A DNA stretch of 64,000 nt from Rotaria socialis (lineage: Eukaryota), in assembly GCA_905331295.1 (NCBI GenBank), contig CAJNYD010000027.1, positions 1 to 64,000 on the forward strand. Direction: 5' to 3'. Both the position numbers and the translations under genes were made by a program. Of this stretch, positions 49,047 to 59,724 are shown piece after piece (positions within the stretch are counted from its first letter, which is position 1; every line of letters begins with the position of its first letter). The notes under the pieces were generated by a model, which was given only the letters and a program-made list of their open reading frames with translations, had not been told where the DNA came from and ran no database searches.

Positions 49047-50332
49047 CTATGAGTACATTGTACCTGACAAATGCAAATAGTTATATTCACATGGTCCATA
49101 CTAATCAAAACAATAAAACAACAATATCTTACCTTCATTAATTGAAGCACTAATTTTTACATCAGGCATCTGAAACAATGAGATATTTCATTAATATTTT
49201 TTCTTCTTTTAAGTATCTATGATCTTACTTGGCCAGTGATCGAATTTATTCCTGTCTTTTTGCTAGTATTGGCAGCTGCTCCATGTGTATCAATCTATAA
49301 ATAGAATGATTTAAGTGTTAACCTTAGAAGATAATAAGAAATAGTTTGATTTACTTGAGATTTGTTTGAATGTTTTTTTGACTTTCTTTTGCTTATGTCA
49401 AAAGAAGCCACTGTCGAATCACCTGTAATAAAAAGAAACATCAGTTATACATTCTTAATTTCACCAAAACTCGAACAAATTTAAAGCAATATTTAATATA
49501 GGTAGTATACTGTATCTATTAAATAAACATTCTATTTTTATTATCTTTCGAACTCACTAGGTGGATTGGAATGAATTGATAATGAACCAATAATAGGTAC
49601 CGGTTGTAGGAGTGGAAAAGGTGGAATAGTTTCTTCCAGTTGAATAATGTAAAGGTTACCTTGAGTAAGGCAACCTTTTACTTTGAATTGAGTTGCAGCC
49701 ATAAGAAGTACCTCATCTTCAGCTGGGTAAAACGAATGCTGGCTAATATCTCTTGCTGATTTACATTGTAAGGTAAACATAGTTCTTCTGCCTGTTTTTC
49801 CCAAGAATATTTCTGAATCTAGCACATCGACAGATGTTGTGCATGATGAGAAACCGCATCATACAATTGATTCTCCTTTGATATAGCGATTGCTGAGGTC
49901 TAATCTAACACCTCTGTATGCCACCGCAGGAACCAACGGAAGACGAAACAATGCATTTAAAAAAAGTCTCAAATAATGATACCAAAATGGGAGTCTCTGT
50001 TGGCGATTTTTAGCGCGCAGTGTGTCATTCAAGACCACGTATAGACATTCGTCAAGAGGCTCCCATCCCATGGTGTACAACATAATCGAAGCAGATTCAT
50101 CTTGTGTTAAATTATCGGCAGGTTTCTTACATTTTAATTTAGCGGCGTATGCATGACTTTGAACATCAGGTAGAATAGGAACAAGTGGTTTCACCGCTTC
50201 TTCAAGTGAAACAAGGGGTACTTTCGAATAGCCGCCGATGGGTGTAAGAATTTCCAGTGACTCTTGTACAACGTCACTAAAGCGCAATACACGTTGTACT
50301 GTCGCTTCTTCTCCTCCACCTGCTGTGGCCAT
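49047..50332 (-). pseudogene. NAD(P)+-arginine ADP-ribosyltransferase (ART) domain gene with an in-frame TGA
   Basis: LTQDESASIMLYTM, LYVVLNDTLR and R-S-E motifs YRGV, FSSCT, EDEVLL. The expected IVWWGFSSCT reads IV*CGFSSCT (TGA at 49859-49861). Small downstream exons join in phase; 3' end tentative. Confidence 0.8.
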
Positions 50333-51092
50333 GATTATTAGAAAGAAAATACTTTAAGATGATTAATATCTGAAAGTAAAACAAAGACTCATTCAGTGTT
50401 ATTTTCTATAATTTCATCTATTTTATCTCAATATAATAATTAAATTTTCACAATATTAGACAAAAAATATGTGCGTCTACAAGCCCTTTTTATTATTGAT
50501 TATTATGATTAGTAATAATCAAATAAATAAAATATTCCAGTTGTTAAAAGTAAGAAAACAAGATTTAGTTTCACGTGATATATACTATTTGGAACATCAG
50601 TCTTGAAGATAGCTGCTACGGGAATTTCCTCTGTCGATTCAGAAACTTTCGAATAAAAGACTTTTTAACAATCTTTTCAAACAAAATTTGACTACTGTTA
50701 CAGCATTTTCGGGTGTAAGTGTGAGTATTGCTTACTGACTAACACTCGCACCCACACCCACAAGGAAAAGACAGAAATATATGAAAAGAAGTAAATATAT
50801 AGTGTACATATTATAGATGCAAAGTTTCTACGAAATACAAGGAAGTTATATACTATCAATTCAATGTTATAGTGTTCATATTTTCTACTGTTTTTGAATA
50901 TTCACTTCAACAAGTATTTTTAAGTTAGAATATGTTTGTAAGAATAATGTGTACTCCTTGCTTTTTTATAATTTCAACGATGAAAAAACTGCCTGTGTGT
51001 TTCTTTTATGTAAAAAAGAAGATTCGCAAATCCATTAAAATTTTATTATCATTCCACTTACTTCAAAAACTTATATTTACTGGTCTACACTT

Positions 51093-52191: not shown

Positions 52192-52409
52192 CAGGGTGTG
52201 GGTGTGGGTGTGGTTGAGCTAAGAATACAGTTACACGCACACACCCACACCCTAGCTCTTAGATGCGTTGATGCAACGTTGTGAGTGAATGGAGACTTTC
52301 TCAAATTTTTGCTACCCAGTATCCAGCTGACGAAAGTTTTTATAATAGCAACTGCTAATCAAACTTGCGTAGTACGATAGATTTTCTACACACCCACACC
52401 CACACTCTG
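52192..52409. repeat. Element bounded by inverted TGTGGG arrays
   Basis: cagggtgtgggtgtgggtgtgg at 52192 has two inverted partners, cacacccacacccta ending 52254 and cacacccacacccacactctg ending 52409. Confidence 0.7.
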
Positions 52410-53478
52410 TTCGGTTTCTGTGTACTTTGACTGCTTTTTTTTTCATTCTTTTTAAAACACTTAAAAATATGAATTCTATTGGCAATAGAACTGTACATAG
52501 AAACACTAAAATATTCAGTAGACGAGTAGACGACGAATGAGGACAAAGCAAAAAAAATTCTTAATTCCATAAAATTTATTTCTCTGCGGTTTCAAGGTGG
52601 TTTCTGTAAAAAAAAACTCTATGCTCGACCTTTCGACTATTCATTGTCAAAAACAAACTAGCATTTTTTTAAAAATATCTGACATCTCTTTAGAATTGAA
52701 ATATAAATCAAATCAATAAACTCATACCGCTATTCGGTACTTGATTTTATCACCCACTGAAAATAAGAGAAACAAGAAATTTAGCTTACGGATTTGAATT
52801 TTTACTTCAAAAATATTCACATTCTCATGAAAATAATCTAAAAAATGATTTATGATACAATACATGTATAGCAATTTAGAAGTATCCTGACATTTTTTCT
52901 TGCTAAATTCACAACATTAAAGCATGTATAAGTAGCGACTGAAAGAAGTCAAGCAGGATCATTTAAAATATCAATACTAAATCAAAAAATCGAAATATGC
53001 ACATTTTCAGATAACAAGTATTGTCAGGTGTAAGAAAAAAGAAATTCAACGATAGCGAACTTTTCTTAGTCTTAAAAGTCATAAAAACGATGCACCTATC
53101 TTTTTAAAATATGACTTGTTCATTAATATCCTACGACTACTATGAGAATACGAAGCAAAATGTCTGTAATTCATGTTACTATTTTTTATACTAATTCAAA
53201 GATGTTGATTTTTTCCCATCATCTCTCTTTTTATTTTGCAAGTAGAAAAACTAAGCCAATTCACTTTTAATAATCATGTTTTTTTAAATGTGATTCTCTA
53301 ATAGTATATTGATTTTATTATTATTCAAATGTTCTTGAAAAACAGCAGTCCTCAACTCTTATGATGTAATTAAACAATTGAATGTAAAAATACTTGTAAA
53401 CATATCAAAGTCTAAATCAGCACCTACTAATAAAAAATACTTGATTACAAGAGATGATGATAGTAAGAAAAGAAGTTT

Positions 53479-54290: not shown

Positions 54291-54738
54291 ATGTCAAGTC
54301 AATTGTTTAGTGTTAATCGATGAAATAAAATCTAATGTTCGGATTAATAGAGCATAACAGATCTTTAATATATCGAATGATGATGATTGATCAACGCGAG
54401 GAGGTTCATCATAATTTAAAGATCTGGATGTTGTTGAACTGATTGATGAAATAAATCGAGTATTTGTTAATGTATTATTAAAATCATCAAGAATTTATTC
54501 TTTTAGAGTATCTGAATTTGAAAGATTTCAAAATAAAATCATGATTTTTCGATCTATTATCATTATAGATAAATCGAAATTTAAACAGGCGAATGGTGAA
54601 ATCATTTGCTTCATTACTAAATCATTACTAAATGTAATTTTTGTATTTAAAGAATTTGTGAAAATAGATCGAACTTGATATTTTATTTTATTTTTTATTT
54701 TATAAGAAGAGGGTTCCCGTTTCCCGAAGGAGACGGGA

Positions 54739-54929
54739 GTGGACCGAACTCGACAGCACTGCAGTGTCAAGGCGATTCGTGGCACAGGTCCGAGTGAACC
54801 CGGGTGATCTTGGCCGATGTCCAAAAATCCGCTTGAAAGAGCCTGGCCCCAATGGGACCAGCGCCGGCTTTCAAGCCGACGAGAACAGATACTACATTTT
54901 GATCTTAGTCGAAAAGGCCGAGAAGCGAT
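54739..54929 (-). ncRNA. U2: U2 snRNA, full length (~190 nt), variant
   Basis: Reverse strand begins ATCGCTTCTCGGCCTTTTCGACTAAGATCAAAATGTAGTATCTGTTCT. Stems IIa (cgtcggc/gccggcg) and IIb (ctggtccc/ggggccag), IIc complementarity (gcttgaaa/tttcaagc), Sm site GGATTTTTGG, stem IV loop CTGCAGTGC. Confidence 0.93.
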
Positions 54930-55070
54930 GCCTATCTTGGAGGATAGGAAAGCACGAAATTGCGGCTCCAATGACACATCGCTCACTCCAAGGCTCGCAA
55001 AGAACGGAAAAAATGTGAAACGCGTAAGGACAGAAGAAATATCGTGCCCCATATCTCAACAAGAAAAATT
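54930..55070. promoter_or_regulatory. Putative bidirectional snRNA-type promoter between U2 and SL RNA
   Basis: AATTTCGTGC (54961-54952, - strand) lies at -32..-23 of U2. AATATCGTGC (55038-55047) lies at -33..-24 of SL. Both are followed by TATC and CAAGA. Confidence 0.65.
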
Positions 55071-55175
55071 GCTTATTACAACTTACCAAGAGGTAAATGA
55101 TCTTTACTGATCAAATACATGTTGCGATGACGAAATCGTGTGGGTTGATGGTAACATCGACCTACCAGAGCAACA
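55071..55175 (+). ncRNA. Spliced leader (SL) RNA gene, copy 1
   Basis: GCTTATTACAACTTACCAAGAG matches 22 nt of the bdelloid SL exon as I recall it (GGCTTATTACAACTTACCAAGAG) and is followed directly by a GTAAAT donor. Hairpins tgatc/gatca, tgttgc/gcaaca and gtgggttgatg-GTAA-catcgacctac. 3' end inferred. Confidence 0.88.
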
Positions 55176-55520
55176 CTTTTCAATTAAATAAAAAGAAAAA
55201 AAGACAATGATTCATTTTTGAAATAATGAAGAATAAACCATTCATAAAAGTAATAGAATTACATTTGTTTTCAATTGTTCGACTCAATACATTTACAATC
55301 AAACGACGTACTGCTTATCGATGTGAGAAGAAAAAAGTTCTAGAACATCAAAATTTATAAAATGTTAATGATAGAAGCAATCTCGATATTCATAAACAGC
55401 TGCTAATTTCTTTTTTTTAAAGAGACAATAATCGGTATTTTTATTGAAAATGATCTCACTGATTTATTAGTTACAATTGAATAATGTTGAGCCAAATAAG
55501 ATCATACTTTGATAGGTCGA

Positions 55521-55638
55521 GGCCGATGTCCAAAAACTTGCTTGAAAGAGCCTGGCCCCAATGGGACCAGCGCCGGCTTTCAAACCGACGAGAACAGATA
55601 CTACACTTTGATCTTAGCCGAAAAGGCCGAGAAGCGAT
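55521..55638 (-). pseudogene. U2: 3'-truncated U2 snRNA copy (first 118 nt)
   Basis: Near-canonical 5' end ATCGCTTCTCGGCCTTTTCGGCTAAGATCAAAGTGTAGTATCTGTTCT. Sm site altered to AAGTTTTTGG. Stems III and IV are removed by the duplication breakpoint. Confidence 0.88.
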
Positions 55639-55781
55639 GCCTATCTTGGAGGGTAGGGAAAGCACGAAATTGCGGCTGCAATGACACATCGCTCACTCCA
55701 AGGCTCGCACAGAACAGGAAAAAAAATGAAACGCGTAAGGGCAGAAGAAATATCGTGCCCCACATCTCAACGAGAAAAATT

Positions 55782-55886
55782 GCTTATTACAACTTACCAA
55801 GAGGTAAATGATCTTTACTGATCAAATACATGTTGCGATGACGAAATCGTGTGGGTTGATGGTAACATCGACCTGCCAGAGCAACA
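55782..55886 (+). ncRNA. Spliced leader (SL) RNA gene, copy 2
   Basis: Same leader and GT donor as copy 1. The one difference I see (cctac vs cctgc) changes a U-A pair to U-G and keeps the hairpin. Confidence 0.88.
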
Positions 55887-58473
55887 CTTTTCAATTAAAT
55901 AAAAAGAAAAAAAGACAATGATTCATTTTTGAAATAATGAAGAATAAACCATTCATAAAAGTAATAGAATTACATTTGTTTTCAACTGTTCGACTCAATA
56001 CATTTACAATCAAACGACATACTGCTTATCGATTTGGGAAGAGAAAGGTTCCAGAACATCAAAACTTATAAAATGTTAATGATAGAAGCAATCTCGATAT
56101 TCATAAACAGCTGCTAATTTCTTTTTTTTAAGAGCAATAATCGATATTTTTATTGAAAATGATCTCACTGATTTATTAGTTACAATTGAATAATGTTGAG
56201 TCAAATACGATCATACTTTGATAGGTCGAAGTGTAATGTGATCGGTACAATTGTTTTAAGCTGACTCTTATAAAAACAAATGCTTTTTCTGATGGCAACG
56301 ATGAAGTACCTATTTCGATAGTTGTCAGAGATCATTCTGATTTAAATCGAGTAATATACGAATTTATTGATGGTGGTTGTTACAAGTTATTTCGCTGAAC
56401 AAAATACAATATGAATACCGTGAACTTTCGATACTTTCGTCAATAGACACATATAAGTATCAACTGGAAAATTTGTTTAAAATCCCAACTATACATAAAG
56501 CTTAGAACGGTAGTCAGAAAAATCATTGTATAAATCACAATTTATTAGACTCGCAATACTGCGTGTTTACTTTTATCATAACCTATGATCGATAAGTCAA
56601 ATATTATTTTCATAGAGTAATACTGGTGGTAACACTATCTAACTTCAAGCCCAACGGATGTGAAATATGTTATAGGTTTTTCACGGTTGTCAAGTTTTCG
56701 TGAAAATGGATAACACAATCAGATAAAAAAAACCTTCGTCTTGCTTACTGTTTATAAATGATCAACATTTTCATTCGCAAATTCGAATCCTTAGTTTTTT
56801 TTTCTATAACGAAAATTTGAATAAAAAGATTCAGCAGAATTTGATTCGAACGCAGCTTATATTGCTCAGATCTTATAAATACAAAACTTCGTGAAACTAA
56901 ACAACGTGTAATAGTTCGATTAAGACAATTGGCTAGGCAAAGTTTCTAGTCACTTAAATAATTGTATATTTTAGAAAAAAACAAAGGAATGAAATTTGCT
57001 TGAAGTGATCTAAATTGAAAGATAAAATATATCTCTACTCATAGCTTGAAATCAATGGAGTGTTGAAATACAATCATGAAAACGATGTATCTACCTTTTT
57101 AAAATATGAAATACTTTCAGACACATTCATTAATACTAATTCAAAGATATTAATATTTTACCCGTTGTCTGTTTTTCCTATTGTGTAAGTCGAGAACCTA
57201 CAAGCCACCTGAATTTTAATAATCATGTTTGTTAAAATGTGATTCTCTAATTCTAAGTATGTGATTTTCTGTTAGGATGGCATATTGATTATATTCAGTT
57301 CTTATTCAGATTCTCAGAGGAAAAAAACACGGTAATTTCATGAAACAATCAAATGTCTGTGATATTTTTATGATAAATTCGAGTTACAATTTATTACTCA
57401 AAATTATGTGTTACACAAATATAATTTAATTCATACATCATAGAAAAAGTATCGAGTGACTTTACGAAGATTGTGTCTGGTGAGTGTCTCTTCTACGATT
57501 AAACACAATTAAATATTTTCGATGTAATTTTGAAAATCAAATGAAAACTCTGTTTTAAATTTATAATAGAACAGAATTCAATTGATTCATTTCACTGCAT
57601 ACTTTGAAACGAAGACAAGTTGTTGCTCTTTAAATTCACTCTGGAATGCAATTATCTTTTGAAGTATAAGATATTTTACCACCTATTTCCAATGCTAGAA
57701 ATTCTAAAATAAGTATGACGCAAGATGGCGATGCTCTGCGAATTAACAAGTTGTTACTTTTGAGCGACTAAGTTTCGAGATCAGGAATATTTCGATATAA
57801 ATGAAGAATGTTCTCCTATTTGCTTTGTGAATAAATTTCAAATTATTATCTAGGATCAAAGAATCTAACCTACTCATTTTTTCATGAAAGTTCGTTATTT
57901 AGTGTTTTAACTTCACCGACAACAATATTTATCGTTTGGTAACTTTCTTGCACTTGCTAACTCTAATTTATGTATCATTAAAACAATTATTTGTTGAAAA
58001 GTATCAGTTACATAATATTCTGGGAATTGAGCTTGACAAACTTAAACAGATTCGCTTATTTACGTTGATCTAATAATTGTTATAAAAATGATAATCGAAC
58101 AAGATGTATTTTAAAAATTCTAACCAACAACTATTTCATCTTAATAAGATGATCTTATTAAAATAATATATTTTTACCCTGGAAACGGAGACCAAAAAAC
58201 TTTTCGGAATACTGCTTCCAGAATTCGATGGAAAATCACCGAATCAGACTGTTTCCTGCCGTACATATTTGACCCGGAACCCATACACTCAAGATGTGAT
58301 ACTTAGAATATTTTTATAGTAGCTTTTAGCTTTGTATTAACCGATGAATGAAGGGAATGTGTGTTTCAACCAAATATATTAGTTTCTACTATTTTTCAAA
58401 TTGTCATAATTTTAACGAAATTTAGACAATAAAGTCACCAGCAATAATGGGTATTGTCGTAAATCCTATGTAG

Positions 58474-58696
58474 GGGTGGCATTTTAACTTTAATAAAAGT
58501 ACTGTAAAAATGAAAAGTAAGTTTTAGCTCTTTATGTACGGTTCTATATAATTTTTACAGTAACTTTAAACTTTAAACTTTAATAAGCAGAGTTTAAAGT
58601 TTAAAGTTACACTAAGAACCATATATAACCGTACATAAAGAGCTAAAACTTACCTTTCATTTTTACAATACTTTTATTAAAGTTAAAGTGCCATCC
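58474..58696. mobile_element. Foldback MITE, ~105 bp inverted arms
   Basis: gggtggcattttaactttaataaaagta...gtaactttaaactttaaact is mirrored by agtttaaagtttaaagttac...tacttttattaaagttaaagtgccatcc. Confidence 0.85.
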
Positions 58697-59724
58697 AGGG
58701 TTGCCAACTGTACCCCATTTTGAGATACAGTACCCCACTTGGACTTTTCCCTTTACACTATATATATCAATCACCTTTCAATATAAATCAATGACATTTT
58801 TGGCTTTAACTACCGTTTTTCTTGTGGAGATAAAAGTGTTAATCATATTAACCGGCTGCCCAAGGAGTCAAAAATTTGGAAAAACGCGTTTAAACGCTCA
58901 AAATAGAACCATGGTTGTGAGCCATTAGCGCTTATTAAAAAACCGCAAGAAGCACATTTTATGTTCAAAATTTGTACTTTCAGAGCGTAAAAAAGACGGG
59001 AAAATTCAGTTTTTAATGTTAAAGCACACTTTTATTCTATAATGTAAAAACAATGCAGCTTAGCACTCAAAAACTGGAGTTCTCCGCCGGCTTCACGCTC
59101 TAATAATGAAAATTTTGAATACATAACGCCTTTCTTGCCGGTTTTTAATGAGCGCTAATGGCGCACAATGACCGTCTCATTTTGAACGTTTAAGCGTGTT
59201 TTTCCAAATTTTTGTCTGCTTCGGTGGGGATTCAGTCATATGAAGCACACATGGACACCAAGTCGAAACTCGATGTCAACTGAGACCATTGCGGCTGAAT
59301 GAAAAGTTAGGTTGAAGTTGAATACTAAGCTGAAATGTGAAGATTATGATTTATTTGTACAGTCGCAACCAGAATGGGTCAAACTTGCCAAAAGCAAATA
59401 GCAATACCGTCATGAAAAAAAGATGTGCGTCAGTTAATGTGAATACAGAGCGTTTTTTCTAATGAAACATTTTTGTTTTATCTTTTGAACAAAAATATGT
59501 TGAAAACAGCAATAACTGCGAACTCATTTGTTTGAAAGCAAACATTCCAGATTATGTCTTGCACACAGGCAGTTGAACGTGATCTTTCTCTCGCTAAAAA
59601 TGCTATTGCCAGCCGTTTCGTGACATCAATTCCTTGTCTTGTAAAAACACTTTGTCCCCCACGAGCGTACCCCATTATGAAAAGAATTGTACCCCATTGG
59701 AGACCTTAACAGTTGGCAACCATT
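58696..59724. mobile_element. Non-autonomous hAT-like element containing a nested MITE
   Basis: Inverted termini cagggttgccaactgt / acagttggcaacc, subterminal gtacccca repeats near both ends, and faint frameshifted transposase C-terminal remnants near 59430-59610. Confidence 0.7.
58859..59224. mobile_element. CCCAAGCAGACAAA-family MITE, palindromic over most of its length
   Basis: cccaaggagtcaaaaatttggaaaaacgcg ... cgtgtttttccaaatttttgtctgcttcgg, flanked by TG on both sides. Confidence 0.8.

What the first reader, a model, noticed from the sequence alone, without database searches (positions are those of the whole stretch)
54739..55175. Head-to-head U2 snRNA / spliced-leader RNA gene cassette
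Seen: U2 starts at 54929 on the minus strand and an SL RNA gene starts at 55071 on the plus strand, 141 bp apart. Established: U2 is required for both cis- and trans-splicing, and SL genes are linked to 5S rRNA or snRNA genes in several lineages. Inference: a divergently co-transcribed trans-splicing module. I do not know of this arrangement being described in rotifers, but cannot check.
Basis: partly seen in the sequence, partly recalled or inferred. Interest (0 to 1): 0.9.

Follow-up and report, generated by a model that had tools for sequence, protein, structure and literature searches.

The report
Back-to-back rotifer U2 and leader genes
A splicing RNA gene (U2) and a spliced-leader RNA gene sit back to back in what is likely a bdelloid rotifer genome, one case of a recurring fixed-spacing layout that likely couples two separate promoters, and the leader RNA lacks the usual Sm protein site but carries a conserved motif predicted to form a snoRNA-like kink.

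Summary
U2 (54929-54734, minus, Rfam 121.7 bits) and an SL RNA gene (from 55071, plus; exon equals the published bdelloid leader minus its first G) lie 141 bp apart. A 709-bp tandem copy follows, with U2 truncated.

The cassette is not a dedicated U2/SL module. In 114 metagenome loci the usual unit is a back-to-back SL/SL pair (35 spacer clusters, 125-137 bp). U2/SL pairs recur in 5 other clusters. U2 was the only snRNA found near SL genes. Each gene has its own two-block upstream element. The blocks are 28-31 bp apart in 32 of 35 SL/SL pairs although the middle is unconserved, so the promoters are likely coupled; the genes are not co-transcribed.

This window's U2 looks decayed (8 private transitions, weak promoter block); its SL gene looks intact.

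The SL intron has no conserved Sm site. A box C/D-like K-turn geometry occurs in 115 of 123 copies; a three-way junction fits the same bases. Ten literature searches found neither the layout nor the motif, but the 2005 rotifer SL paper was unreadable. Transcription of this locus is untested.

The parts
54734..54929 (-). U2 snRNA gene, copy 1: full length with Sm site, but 8 private transitions (possibly decaying)
   Evidence: Rfam 121.7 bits versus 137-142 for canonical relatives; private changes
54715..54738 (-). Extra 3' hairpin beyond the Rfam U2 model, mostly with a UUCG loop
   Evidence: Folds in the window copy and in all 10 distinct sequences read behind U2 3' ends in the loci, with pair-preserving changes
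54951..54962 (-). U2 upstream block B (PSEB-like position, about -33)
   Evidence: Score 10.5 with the SL-trained matrix
54968..54980 (-). U2 upstream block A (PSEA-like position, about -51), degenerate here
   Evidence: Score -5.1 versus 8.5-19.1 in the 5 other U2/SL clusters
55019..55031 (+). SL upstream block A (-52 to -40)
   Evidence: Score 12.8; whole promoter 30.0, the top score among 18,036 sampled window positions
55037..55048 (+). SL upstream block B (-34 to -23)
   Evidence: Score 13.2; conserved columns
55071..55092 (+). Spliced-leader exon, 22 nt, followed by GT donor at 55093-55094
   Evidence: matches the published rotifer leader minus first G
55071..55175 (+). SL RNA gene, copy 1: stem I across the donor, stem II, 3' domain; no canonical Sm site
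   Evidence: Fold z -5.3; covariation in the 3' hairpin; no conserved U tract
55121..55133 (+). 5' strand of the terminal stem plus box C-like heptamer (predicted bulged K-turn strand)
   Evidence: Near-invariant columns; motif counts
55166..55174 (+). Box D-like tetramer plus 3' strand of the terminal stem
   Evidence: Terminal stem 100% paired in 68 sequences
55521..56229 (.). Second copy of a 709-bp tandem duplication (first copy 54812-55520), 95.8% identical
55521..55638 (-). U2 copy 2: 5' 118 nt only, Sm site altered; pseudogene
55782..55886 (+). SL RNA gene, copy 2: one base different from copy 1 (U-A versus U-G pair)

Best explanation
A U2 snRNA gene and a spliced-leader RNA gene sit back to back 141 bp apart, each behind its own two-block upstream element that likely acts as a separate RNA polymerase II snRNA promoter, and the near-fixed spacing of such pairs in related sequences likely couples the two promoters. 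Shown: the gene identities, the upstream blocks, and the recurrence of the layout, mostly as SL/SL and sometimes as U2/SL. Inferred: the unit began as an inverted duplication of an SL gene centred about 67 bp upstream; two SNAPc-type complexes load back to back about 30 bp apart and help each other or share one open-chromatin patch; U2, which uses the same promoter type, fills one slot in some pairs. Two separate capped RNAs would result: U2 for all splicing, and SL RNA to donate its 22-nt exon to mRNAs. In this window the SL side looks functional and the U2 side is likely decaying. The SL RNA's 3' domain likely binds protein through a box C/D-like K-turn (about 55%) in place of a normal Sm site.
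For: Identities. Layout: of 154 distinct SL genes in 114 loci, 108 have a divergent SL partner, 8 a U2 partner, 19 none, and 19 have too little upstream DNA. At 80% identity the spacers form 35 SL/SL and 5 direct U2/SL clusters (133, 133, 137, 144, 235 bp). Promoters: conserved blocks at -51..-40 and -34..-24 in 63 non-redundant SL upstreams; 11 of 12 U2 upstreams score in the top 0.1% of window background; the design resembles the PSEA/PSEB of Drosophila Pol II snRNA genes (PMC1761439, passages). Spacing: block-A gap 28-31 bp in 32 of 35 SL/SL clusters, while the central 28 nt average 45% identity. Six SL genes keep a divergent promoter-like element 132-137 bp away with a broken or missing partner gene. 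U2 is the only family at Rfam's gathering score in 60 of 114 loci and the only snRNA at E<=0.5 in 31 loci.
Against: No transcription data for this locus: only contigs were available, and they carried relatives' alleles. Coupling rests on spacing alone. Gaps of 21, 33, 34, 38-40 and 132 bp also occur, and some U2 genes lie in tandem with no divergent partner. Arms within a pair are only slightly more alike than arms of different pairs (0.56 vs 0.52; above 0.7 in 7 of 35 vs 6.5%), so the inverted-duplication origin is weakly supported. Loci were picked by an exact SL match and many are redundant. The window's flanks match none of the loci, so orthology of the U2/SL pairs is not shown.
Confidence: 0.68

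Rival explanations
1. One reading: a dedicated U2/SL module that selection keeps together to match U2 supply to trans-splicing.
For: U2/SL pairs recur in 5 other spacer clusters. U2 hits lie in 33 of 114 SL loci, and no other snRNA was found.
Against: SL/SL pairs outnumber U2/SL 35 to 5. Linked U2 genes also lie in tandem, and several are divergent variants at 81-84% identity. This window's U2 appears decayed. U2/SL spacers are no more alike (0.52-0.65 for the 133-144 bp ones) than unrelated SL/SL spacers (mean 0.60).
Confidence: 0.2
2. The layout is a historical leftover: small two-gene units are copied around the genome, the promoters are independent, and the spacing is inherited rather than selected.
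For: Off-standard gaps exist. Orphan halves and pseudogenes are common. The window's own cassette was duplicated with a broken U2.
Against: Length is held within 4 bp in 32 of 35 clusters whose middles average 45% identity; neutral indels would be expected to spread it (inference). Several off-standard pairs have one degenerate side (window, L001, L004, L028).
Confidence: 0.25
3. The SL 3' domain is not a K-turn but a three-way junction with a plain tandem G-A internal loop, and a highly divergent Sm site lies elsewhere.
For: This is the minimum-free-energy fold. Its two alternative pairs are 100% paired in 68 sequences, and its mini-hairpin is 76.5% paired. PMC2770079 (passage) says the published rotifer model has an unpaired Sm site. 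Divergent Sm sites are known in Oikopleura and flatworms.
Against: The three mini-hairpin pairs are broken in 49, 12 and 11 of 115 genes while their 5' bases stay fixed. Three copies carry a perfect box C. The longest U run between donor and terminal stem is 1-2 in 87 of 120 genes. The strict C/D geometry arises in 20 of 20,000 shuffles (pattern defined after seeing the data).
Confidence: 0.4
4. The tandem second copy is an assembly artefact that joins two alleles end to end.
For: The 4.2% divergence is close to bdelloid allelic divergence (recalled). In related DNA runs the copy-1 spacer bin is thinly covered compared with the copy-2 bin.
Against: The junction at 55520/55521 is sharp, with at most one base of overlap. 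Both U2 halves carry private changes at a flank-like rate (6 of 118, versus 11 of 344 in the flank), which suits a real duplication with relaxed selection.
Confidence: 0.25

Closest known systems
Bdelloid rotifer SL RNA (Pouchkina-Stantcheva and Tunnacliffe 2005; not held, seen only through PMC1925144, PMC3795323 and PMC2770079)
   Same: [quoted passage not shown]
   Different: Genomic copies have T (90 of 94) or C (4) before the exon, never G, so the published first G is not templated. No conserved Sm site was found across copies. The gene layout and promoter are not covered in the papers I could read.
SL RNA genes linked to other small-RNA genes (Euglena SL-5S 0.6-kb repeat, PMC2784804; same-strand SL tandem arrays in flatworms, PMC12582326)
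   Same: Multicopy SL genes clustered with each other or with another small RNA gene.
   Different: Those are head-to-tail. Here the unit is a divergent pair with near-fixed spacing, the only non-SL partner found is U2, and no 5S was found.
Trypanosomatid tRNA / U3 or snRNA divergent pairs (PMC2784804)
   Same: Head-to-head small-RNA genes with a narrowly held spacer (93-105 bp there).
   Different: There a Pol III tRNA's internal boxes drive the partner. Here each gene has its own upstream element and ARAGORN found no tRNA in the window.
Drosophila Pol II snRNA promoter PSEA/PSEB (PMC1761439)
   Same: Two upstream blocks at fixed distance, no TATA box, shared between snRNA-type genes.
   Different: Different sequence; arranged as mirror-image pairs; no binding or transcription test here.
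Box C/D K-turn of snoRNAs, U3 and U4 (PMC4382518)
   Same: Terminal stem, three-nucleotide bulge, tandem G-A and A-G, closing G-C, boxes at the RNA's 3' end.
   Different: The pair after the G-A pairs is C-A rather than U-U, a type that PMC4382518 reports can fold in Mg2+ without protein. No guide sequence. It sits in a trans-splicing donor RNA.

Membership tests
U2 snRNA (RF00004) | Full-length match above the gathering score | tested here: met
   121.7 bits versus 46, model 1-192
U2 snRNA (RF00004) | Branch-site hexamer GUAGUA and Sm site | tested here: met
   Both present in copy 1; Sm site altered and 3' half missing in copy 2
U2 snRNA (RF00004) | Intact stems and invariant 5' bases (functional copy) | tested here: inconclusive
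   8 private transitions versus 6 relatives that differ from each other by 1-6. Three break pairs by my reading of the fold; G21 is the U2/U6 helix Ib base (recalled). Fold -80.9 versus -93.3 kcal/mol for L001
Spliced-leader RNA | Short 5' exon followed by a GU donor in the first stem-loop | tested here: met
   (stem I 95% paired in 68 sequences)
Spliced-leader RNA | Exon found at mRNA 5' ends | tested here: inconclusive
   RNA contigs did not show it; published for bdelloids according to PMC1925144
Spliced-leader RNA | Single-stranded Sm site (RAU3-6GR) in the intron | tested here: not met
   Sm-like strings in 15 of 111 genes, at scattered positions; longest U run 1-2 in 87 of 120
Spliced-leader RNA | Trimethylguanosine cap and RNP assembly | not testable with these tools
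   Needs immunoprecipitation
Pol II snRNA-type promoter (PSE) | Position-fixed upstream element shared by snRNA-type genes, without TATA | tested here: met
Pol II snRNA-type promoter (PSE) | SNAPc binding and Pol II initiation | not testable with these tools
   Inferred from architecture only
Standard K-turn | Duplex, 3-nt bulge, then G-A and A-G pairs | tested here: met
   Sequence geometry in 115 of 123 SL genes; definition from PMC4382518
Standard K-turn | Kinked register preferred over the alternative pairing | tested here: inconclusive
   Both registers are 100% paired and show no covariation
Box C/D snoRNA | Exact boxes RUGAUGA and CUGA | tested here: not met
   One change in each box at mutually facing positions; exact box C in 3 of 111; no Rfam snoRNA match better than E 5.5 over the SL gene
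Box C/D snoRNA | Binds Snu13, Nop56/58 and fibrillarin | not testable with these tools
   Complex prediction scores proteins only
SL-5S rRNA repeat | 5S gene in the unit | tested here: not met
   None in the window or in 60 of 114 loci scanned

The most novel reading that the evidence does not exclude
Bdelloid rotifers build their spliced-leader particle without an Sm ring, on a box C/D-like K-turn bound by 15.5K/Snu13, as if the leader RNA arose from or converged on a U3-like snoRNA. They transcribe it from paired, helically phased back-to-back promoters into which U2 alone among snRNAs has been recruited.
Probability: 0.3. Interest if true: 0.85.

Novelty: new variant of a known kind. Interest (0 to 1): 0.52.

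Why it matters
How SL trans-splicing arose repeatedly in animals is an open question, and the usual model derives SL RNAs from Sm-bound snRNAs (PMC7986045, PMC6053224). An SL RNA with a conserved K-turn and no Sm site would be a direct counter-example, testable with one binding assay. It would also be missed by tools that require an Sm motif by default. The paired layout gives the first bdelloid snRNA promoter consensus I could find, and a natural series of spacings for testing whether back-to-back SNAPc promoters cooperate. The single cassette in this window matters less, because its U2 may be dying.

Tried and rejected
No whole genome is held, so copy numbers in this organism are unknown. 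RNA runs were contigs only: 3 of 4 covered relatives' U2, and 1 held an SL gene with upstream DNA, so probably DNA carry-over; no evidence on this locus or on mRNA 5' ends. Depth in DNA contigs was higher over SL than U2, but the tool states it is no copy number. Viral contigs: no SL match. Window flanks versus the 114 loci: no tblastn or blastn hit. No Rfam family matches the SL gene. miRNA-family hits are below gathering score and fall mostly on inverted spacers or SL pairs; rejected. A Utopia retrotransposon as the cause of the U2 truncation: the break is explained by the duplication end; PMC4640811 passages add nothing on rotifers. A promoter scan for other snRNA-type genes gave 126 hits: 106 SL, 8 U2 and 12 unlabelled, of which 6 are orphan halves of pairs and none showed a new RNA. 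SL conservation versus flank between the two window copies was not significant (1 of 106 vs 11 of 344; one search printed p=0.21 for a pre-typed 14 of 344, so the true p is larger). Helical phasing (gaps 21, 30, 38-40) is a hint from few cases only. One U2/SL 'spacer' of 383 bp (L004) spans another SL gene and was dropped. Earlier findings: none.

Full report
Observation. Rfam finds two U2 matches in the window and nothing else at gathering score: 54929-54734 minus, full length, 121.7 bits, and a partial one from 55638. The leader core occurs at 55072 and 55783, against 0.01 expected by chance, each followed by GT. Bases 55071-55092 equal the Rotifera consensus leader in Table 1 of PMC3795323 without its first G. 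PMC1925144 states that this exon comes from RNAs of about 100 nt and is on more than half of bdelloid transcripts. The organism is therefore very likely a bdelloid; no genome was available to confirm it. The two genes are 141 bp apart, as reported. The region 54812-55520 is repeated at 55521-56229 with 95.8% identity, and the repeat begins inside U2, so the second U2 has only its first 118 nt.

Is the arrangement general? One scan of metagenome contigs for the exon plus GT returned 116 stretches in 114 loci, 80 with wide flanks. Many are redundant, and all were selected on SL. Among 154 distinct SL genes, 108 have another SL gene head-to-head, 8 have U2, 19 have no recognised partner, and 19 lack enough upstream DNA. 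Clustering 60 distinct spacers at 80% identity gave 35 SL/SL clusters (125-137 bp) and 6 U2/SL clusters; I dropped one that spans an intervening SL gene, leaving 133, 133, 137, 144 and 235 bp. U2 hits lie in 33 of 114 loci, some in tandem behind an SL gene, and four are divergent variants at 81-84% identity. Rfam found only U2 in 60 of the 114 loci at gathering score and no other snRNA or 5S at E up to 0.5 in 31 loci. The window's flanks match none of these loci, so whether the U2/SL pairs share one origin is open.

Promoters. In 63 non-redundant SL upstream regions two blocks stand out, at -51 to -40 and -34 to -24; U2 genes share the first block one base closer to the start. A matrix trained on SL scores the window's SL genes 30.0 and 26.4 (leave-one-out median 28.8) and its U2 genes 7.0 and 14.4, all within the top 0.03% of 18,036 sampled window positions. 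This resembles the PSEA/PSEB design of Drosophila Pol II snRNA genes (PMC1761439); SNAPc binding and Pol II use are inferred. Each gene thus has its own element, so the pair is not co-transcribed. The outer edges of the two first blocks are 28-31 bp apart in 32 of 35 SL/SL clusters, while the central 28 bases of 17 equal-length spacers average 45% identity. Six SL genes keep a promoter-like element at 132-137 bp on the other strand with a broken or absent partner. I infer a length constraint and so some coupling between the promoters; neutral inheritance is the rival. The base before the exon is T in 90 and C in 4 of 94 genes, so the published first G is not templated and is likely read from the cap.

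State of this copy. The window's full U2 has 8 changes not seen in 6 canonical relatives, all transitions; those relatives differ from each other at 1-6 sites. They include G21A in stem I (the U2/U6 helix Ib base, recalled) and G33A, two bases before the intact branch-site hexamer. Three break pairs by my reading of the canonical fold. Its first promoter block scores -5.1 against 8.5-19.1 in other U2/SL pairs. Related DNA runs carry the canonical base at 54777 and 54810 in nearly all depth. The two SL copies differ at one base that keeps a pair, though this is not significantly fewer than in the flank. The U2 side is likely decaying (about 60%) and the SL side likely active. RNA contigs gave no evidence for this locus.

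SL RNA structure. The window's SL folds at z -5.3. On 68 aligned genes (66 of 111 distinct locus genes plus the two window copies), the long 3' hairpin has changes on both sides at 8 of 11 pairs and the terminal stem is 100% paired. No Sm site is conserved: Sm-like strings appear in 15 of 111 genes at scattered places, and the longest U run between donor and terminal stem is 1-2 in 87 of 120. The most conserved intron bases flank the terminal stem and read as a box C-like heptamer (exact box C in 3 of 111) and a box D-like tetramer, in K-turn geometry, in 115 of 123 genes; 20 of 20,000 shuffles of the window intron give this pattern, which I defined after seeing the data. The copies share ancestry, so 115 is not 115 independent cases. 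The pair after the two G-A pairs is C-A, a type that PMC4382518 reports as able to fold in Mg2+. Against this, the minimum-energy fold uses the same bases in a three-way junction whose two alternative pairs are also 100% paired; its mini-hairpin is often broken while the box-like bases stay fixed. PMC2770079 says the published rotifer model has an unpaired Sm site, and I could not read which motif was meant. I put the K-turn at about 55% and an Sm-free particle at about 30%.

Literature seen. Passages by term search: PMC4640811, PMC1925144, PMC3795323, PMC12460157, PMC2784804, PMC12582326, PMC7986045, PMC6053224, PMC1761439, PMC2770079. First quarter of the text: PMC4382518. The 2005 rotifer SL paper is not held; its content is second-hand or recalled. 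Ten full-text searches, including 'spliced leader' with 'U2 snRNA gene' and 'divergently transcribed' (0 papers), 'SL RNA genes' with 'head-to-head' (1, Euglena) and 'spliced leader RNA' with 'kink-turn' (2, unrelated), showed no description of the bdelloid layout or the motif. The library lacks most subscription journals, and supplements of bdelloid genome papers, which I did not see, may bear on novelty.

Verdict. A real feature and a new variant of a known kind. The U2/SL pair is a minority form of a recurring back-to-back SL gene unit, and this copy's U2 is likely decaying. The more interesting lead is the SL RNA's missing Sm site and predicted K-turn. Interest 0.52.

Noticed in passing
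window 54715-54738 minus; behind U2 in L001, L005, L010, L018, L038, L048, L055, L070, L072, L073: All 11 U2 3' ends examined carry an extra 24-nt hairpin beyond the Rfam model, mostly with a UUCG loop. One RNA-library contig covers it. It is either a fifth stem-loop or a 3' processing signal.
   Followed up: partly
L048:693-882 +, L055:1529-1719 -, L073:1070-1267 +, L038:748-933 -: Divergent U2 variants (81-84% identity to the window's U2) about 330 bp downstream of SL genes, with their own promoter block; possibly a variant-U2 family or pseudogenes. L038 has altered bases at the branch-site region.
   Followed up: no
L074:3029-3154: The SL/SL spacer is nearly palindromic (arm identity 0.78; also high in L026, L012, L033), suggesting conversion between the two arms of a pair.
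   Followed up: partly
L001:65-177, L010:649-761, L028:24-136, L050:449-564, L055:2303-2415: Exon variants with one- or two-base insertions sit on otherwise intact SL genes; bdelloids may use several leaders.
   Followed up: no
window 55175-55181 and most SL genes: A short T run follows the terminal stem in most copies; possibly a 3' end signal.
   Followed up: no
L009:2999-3352: Two SL genes tail to tail, one of them paired with U2 across an unusual 235-bp spacer.
   Followed up: no
window 52192-52253 and 52387-52409: Short inverted tracts of a TGTGGG repeat, recalled as the bdelloid telomeric unit.
   Followed up: no
window 49541-50353 minus: Gene pieces with a Pfam ART (NAD:arginine ADP-ribosyltransferase) hit, E 9.8e-07.
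   Followed up: no
window 58474-58696 and 58859-59224: Two long inverted repeats (106-nt arms, 91%; 156-nt arms, 76%), MITE-like.
   Followed up: no
window 53079-53316 and 57074-57268: A diverged direct repeat (about 78%) on either side of the cassette, about 4 kb apart.
   Followed up: no
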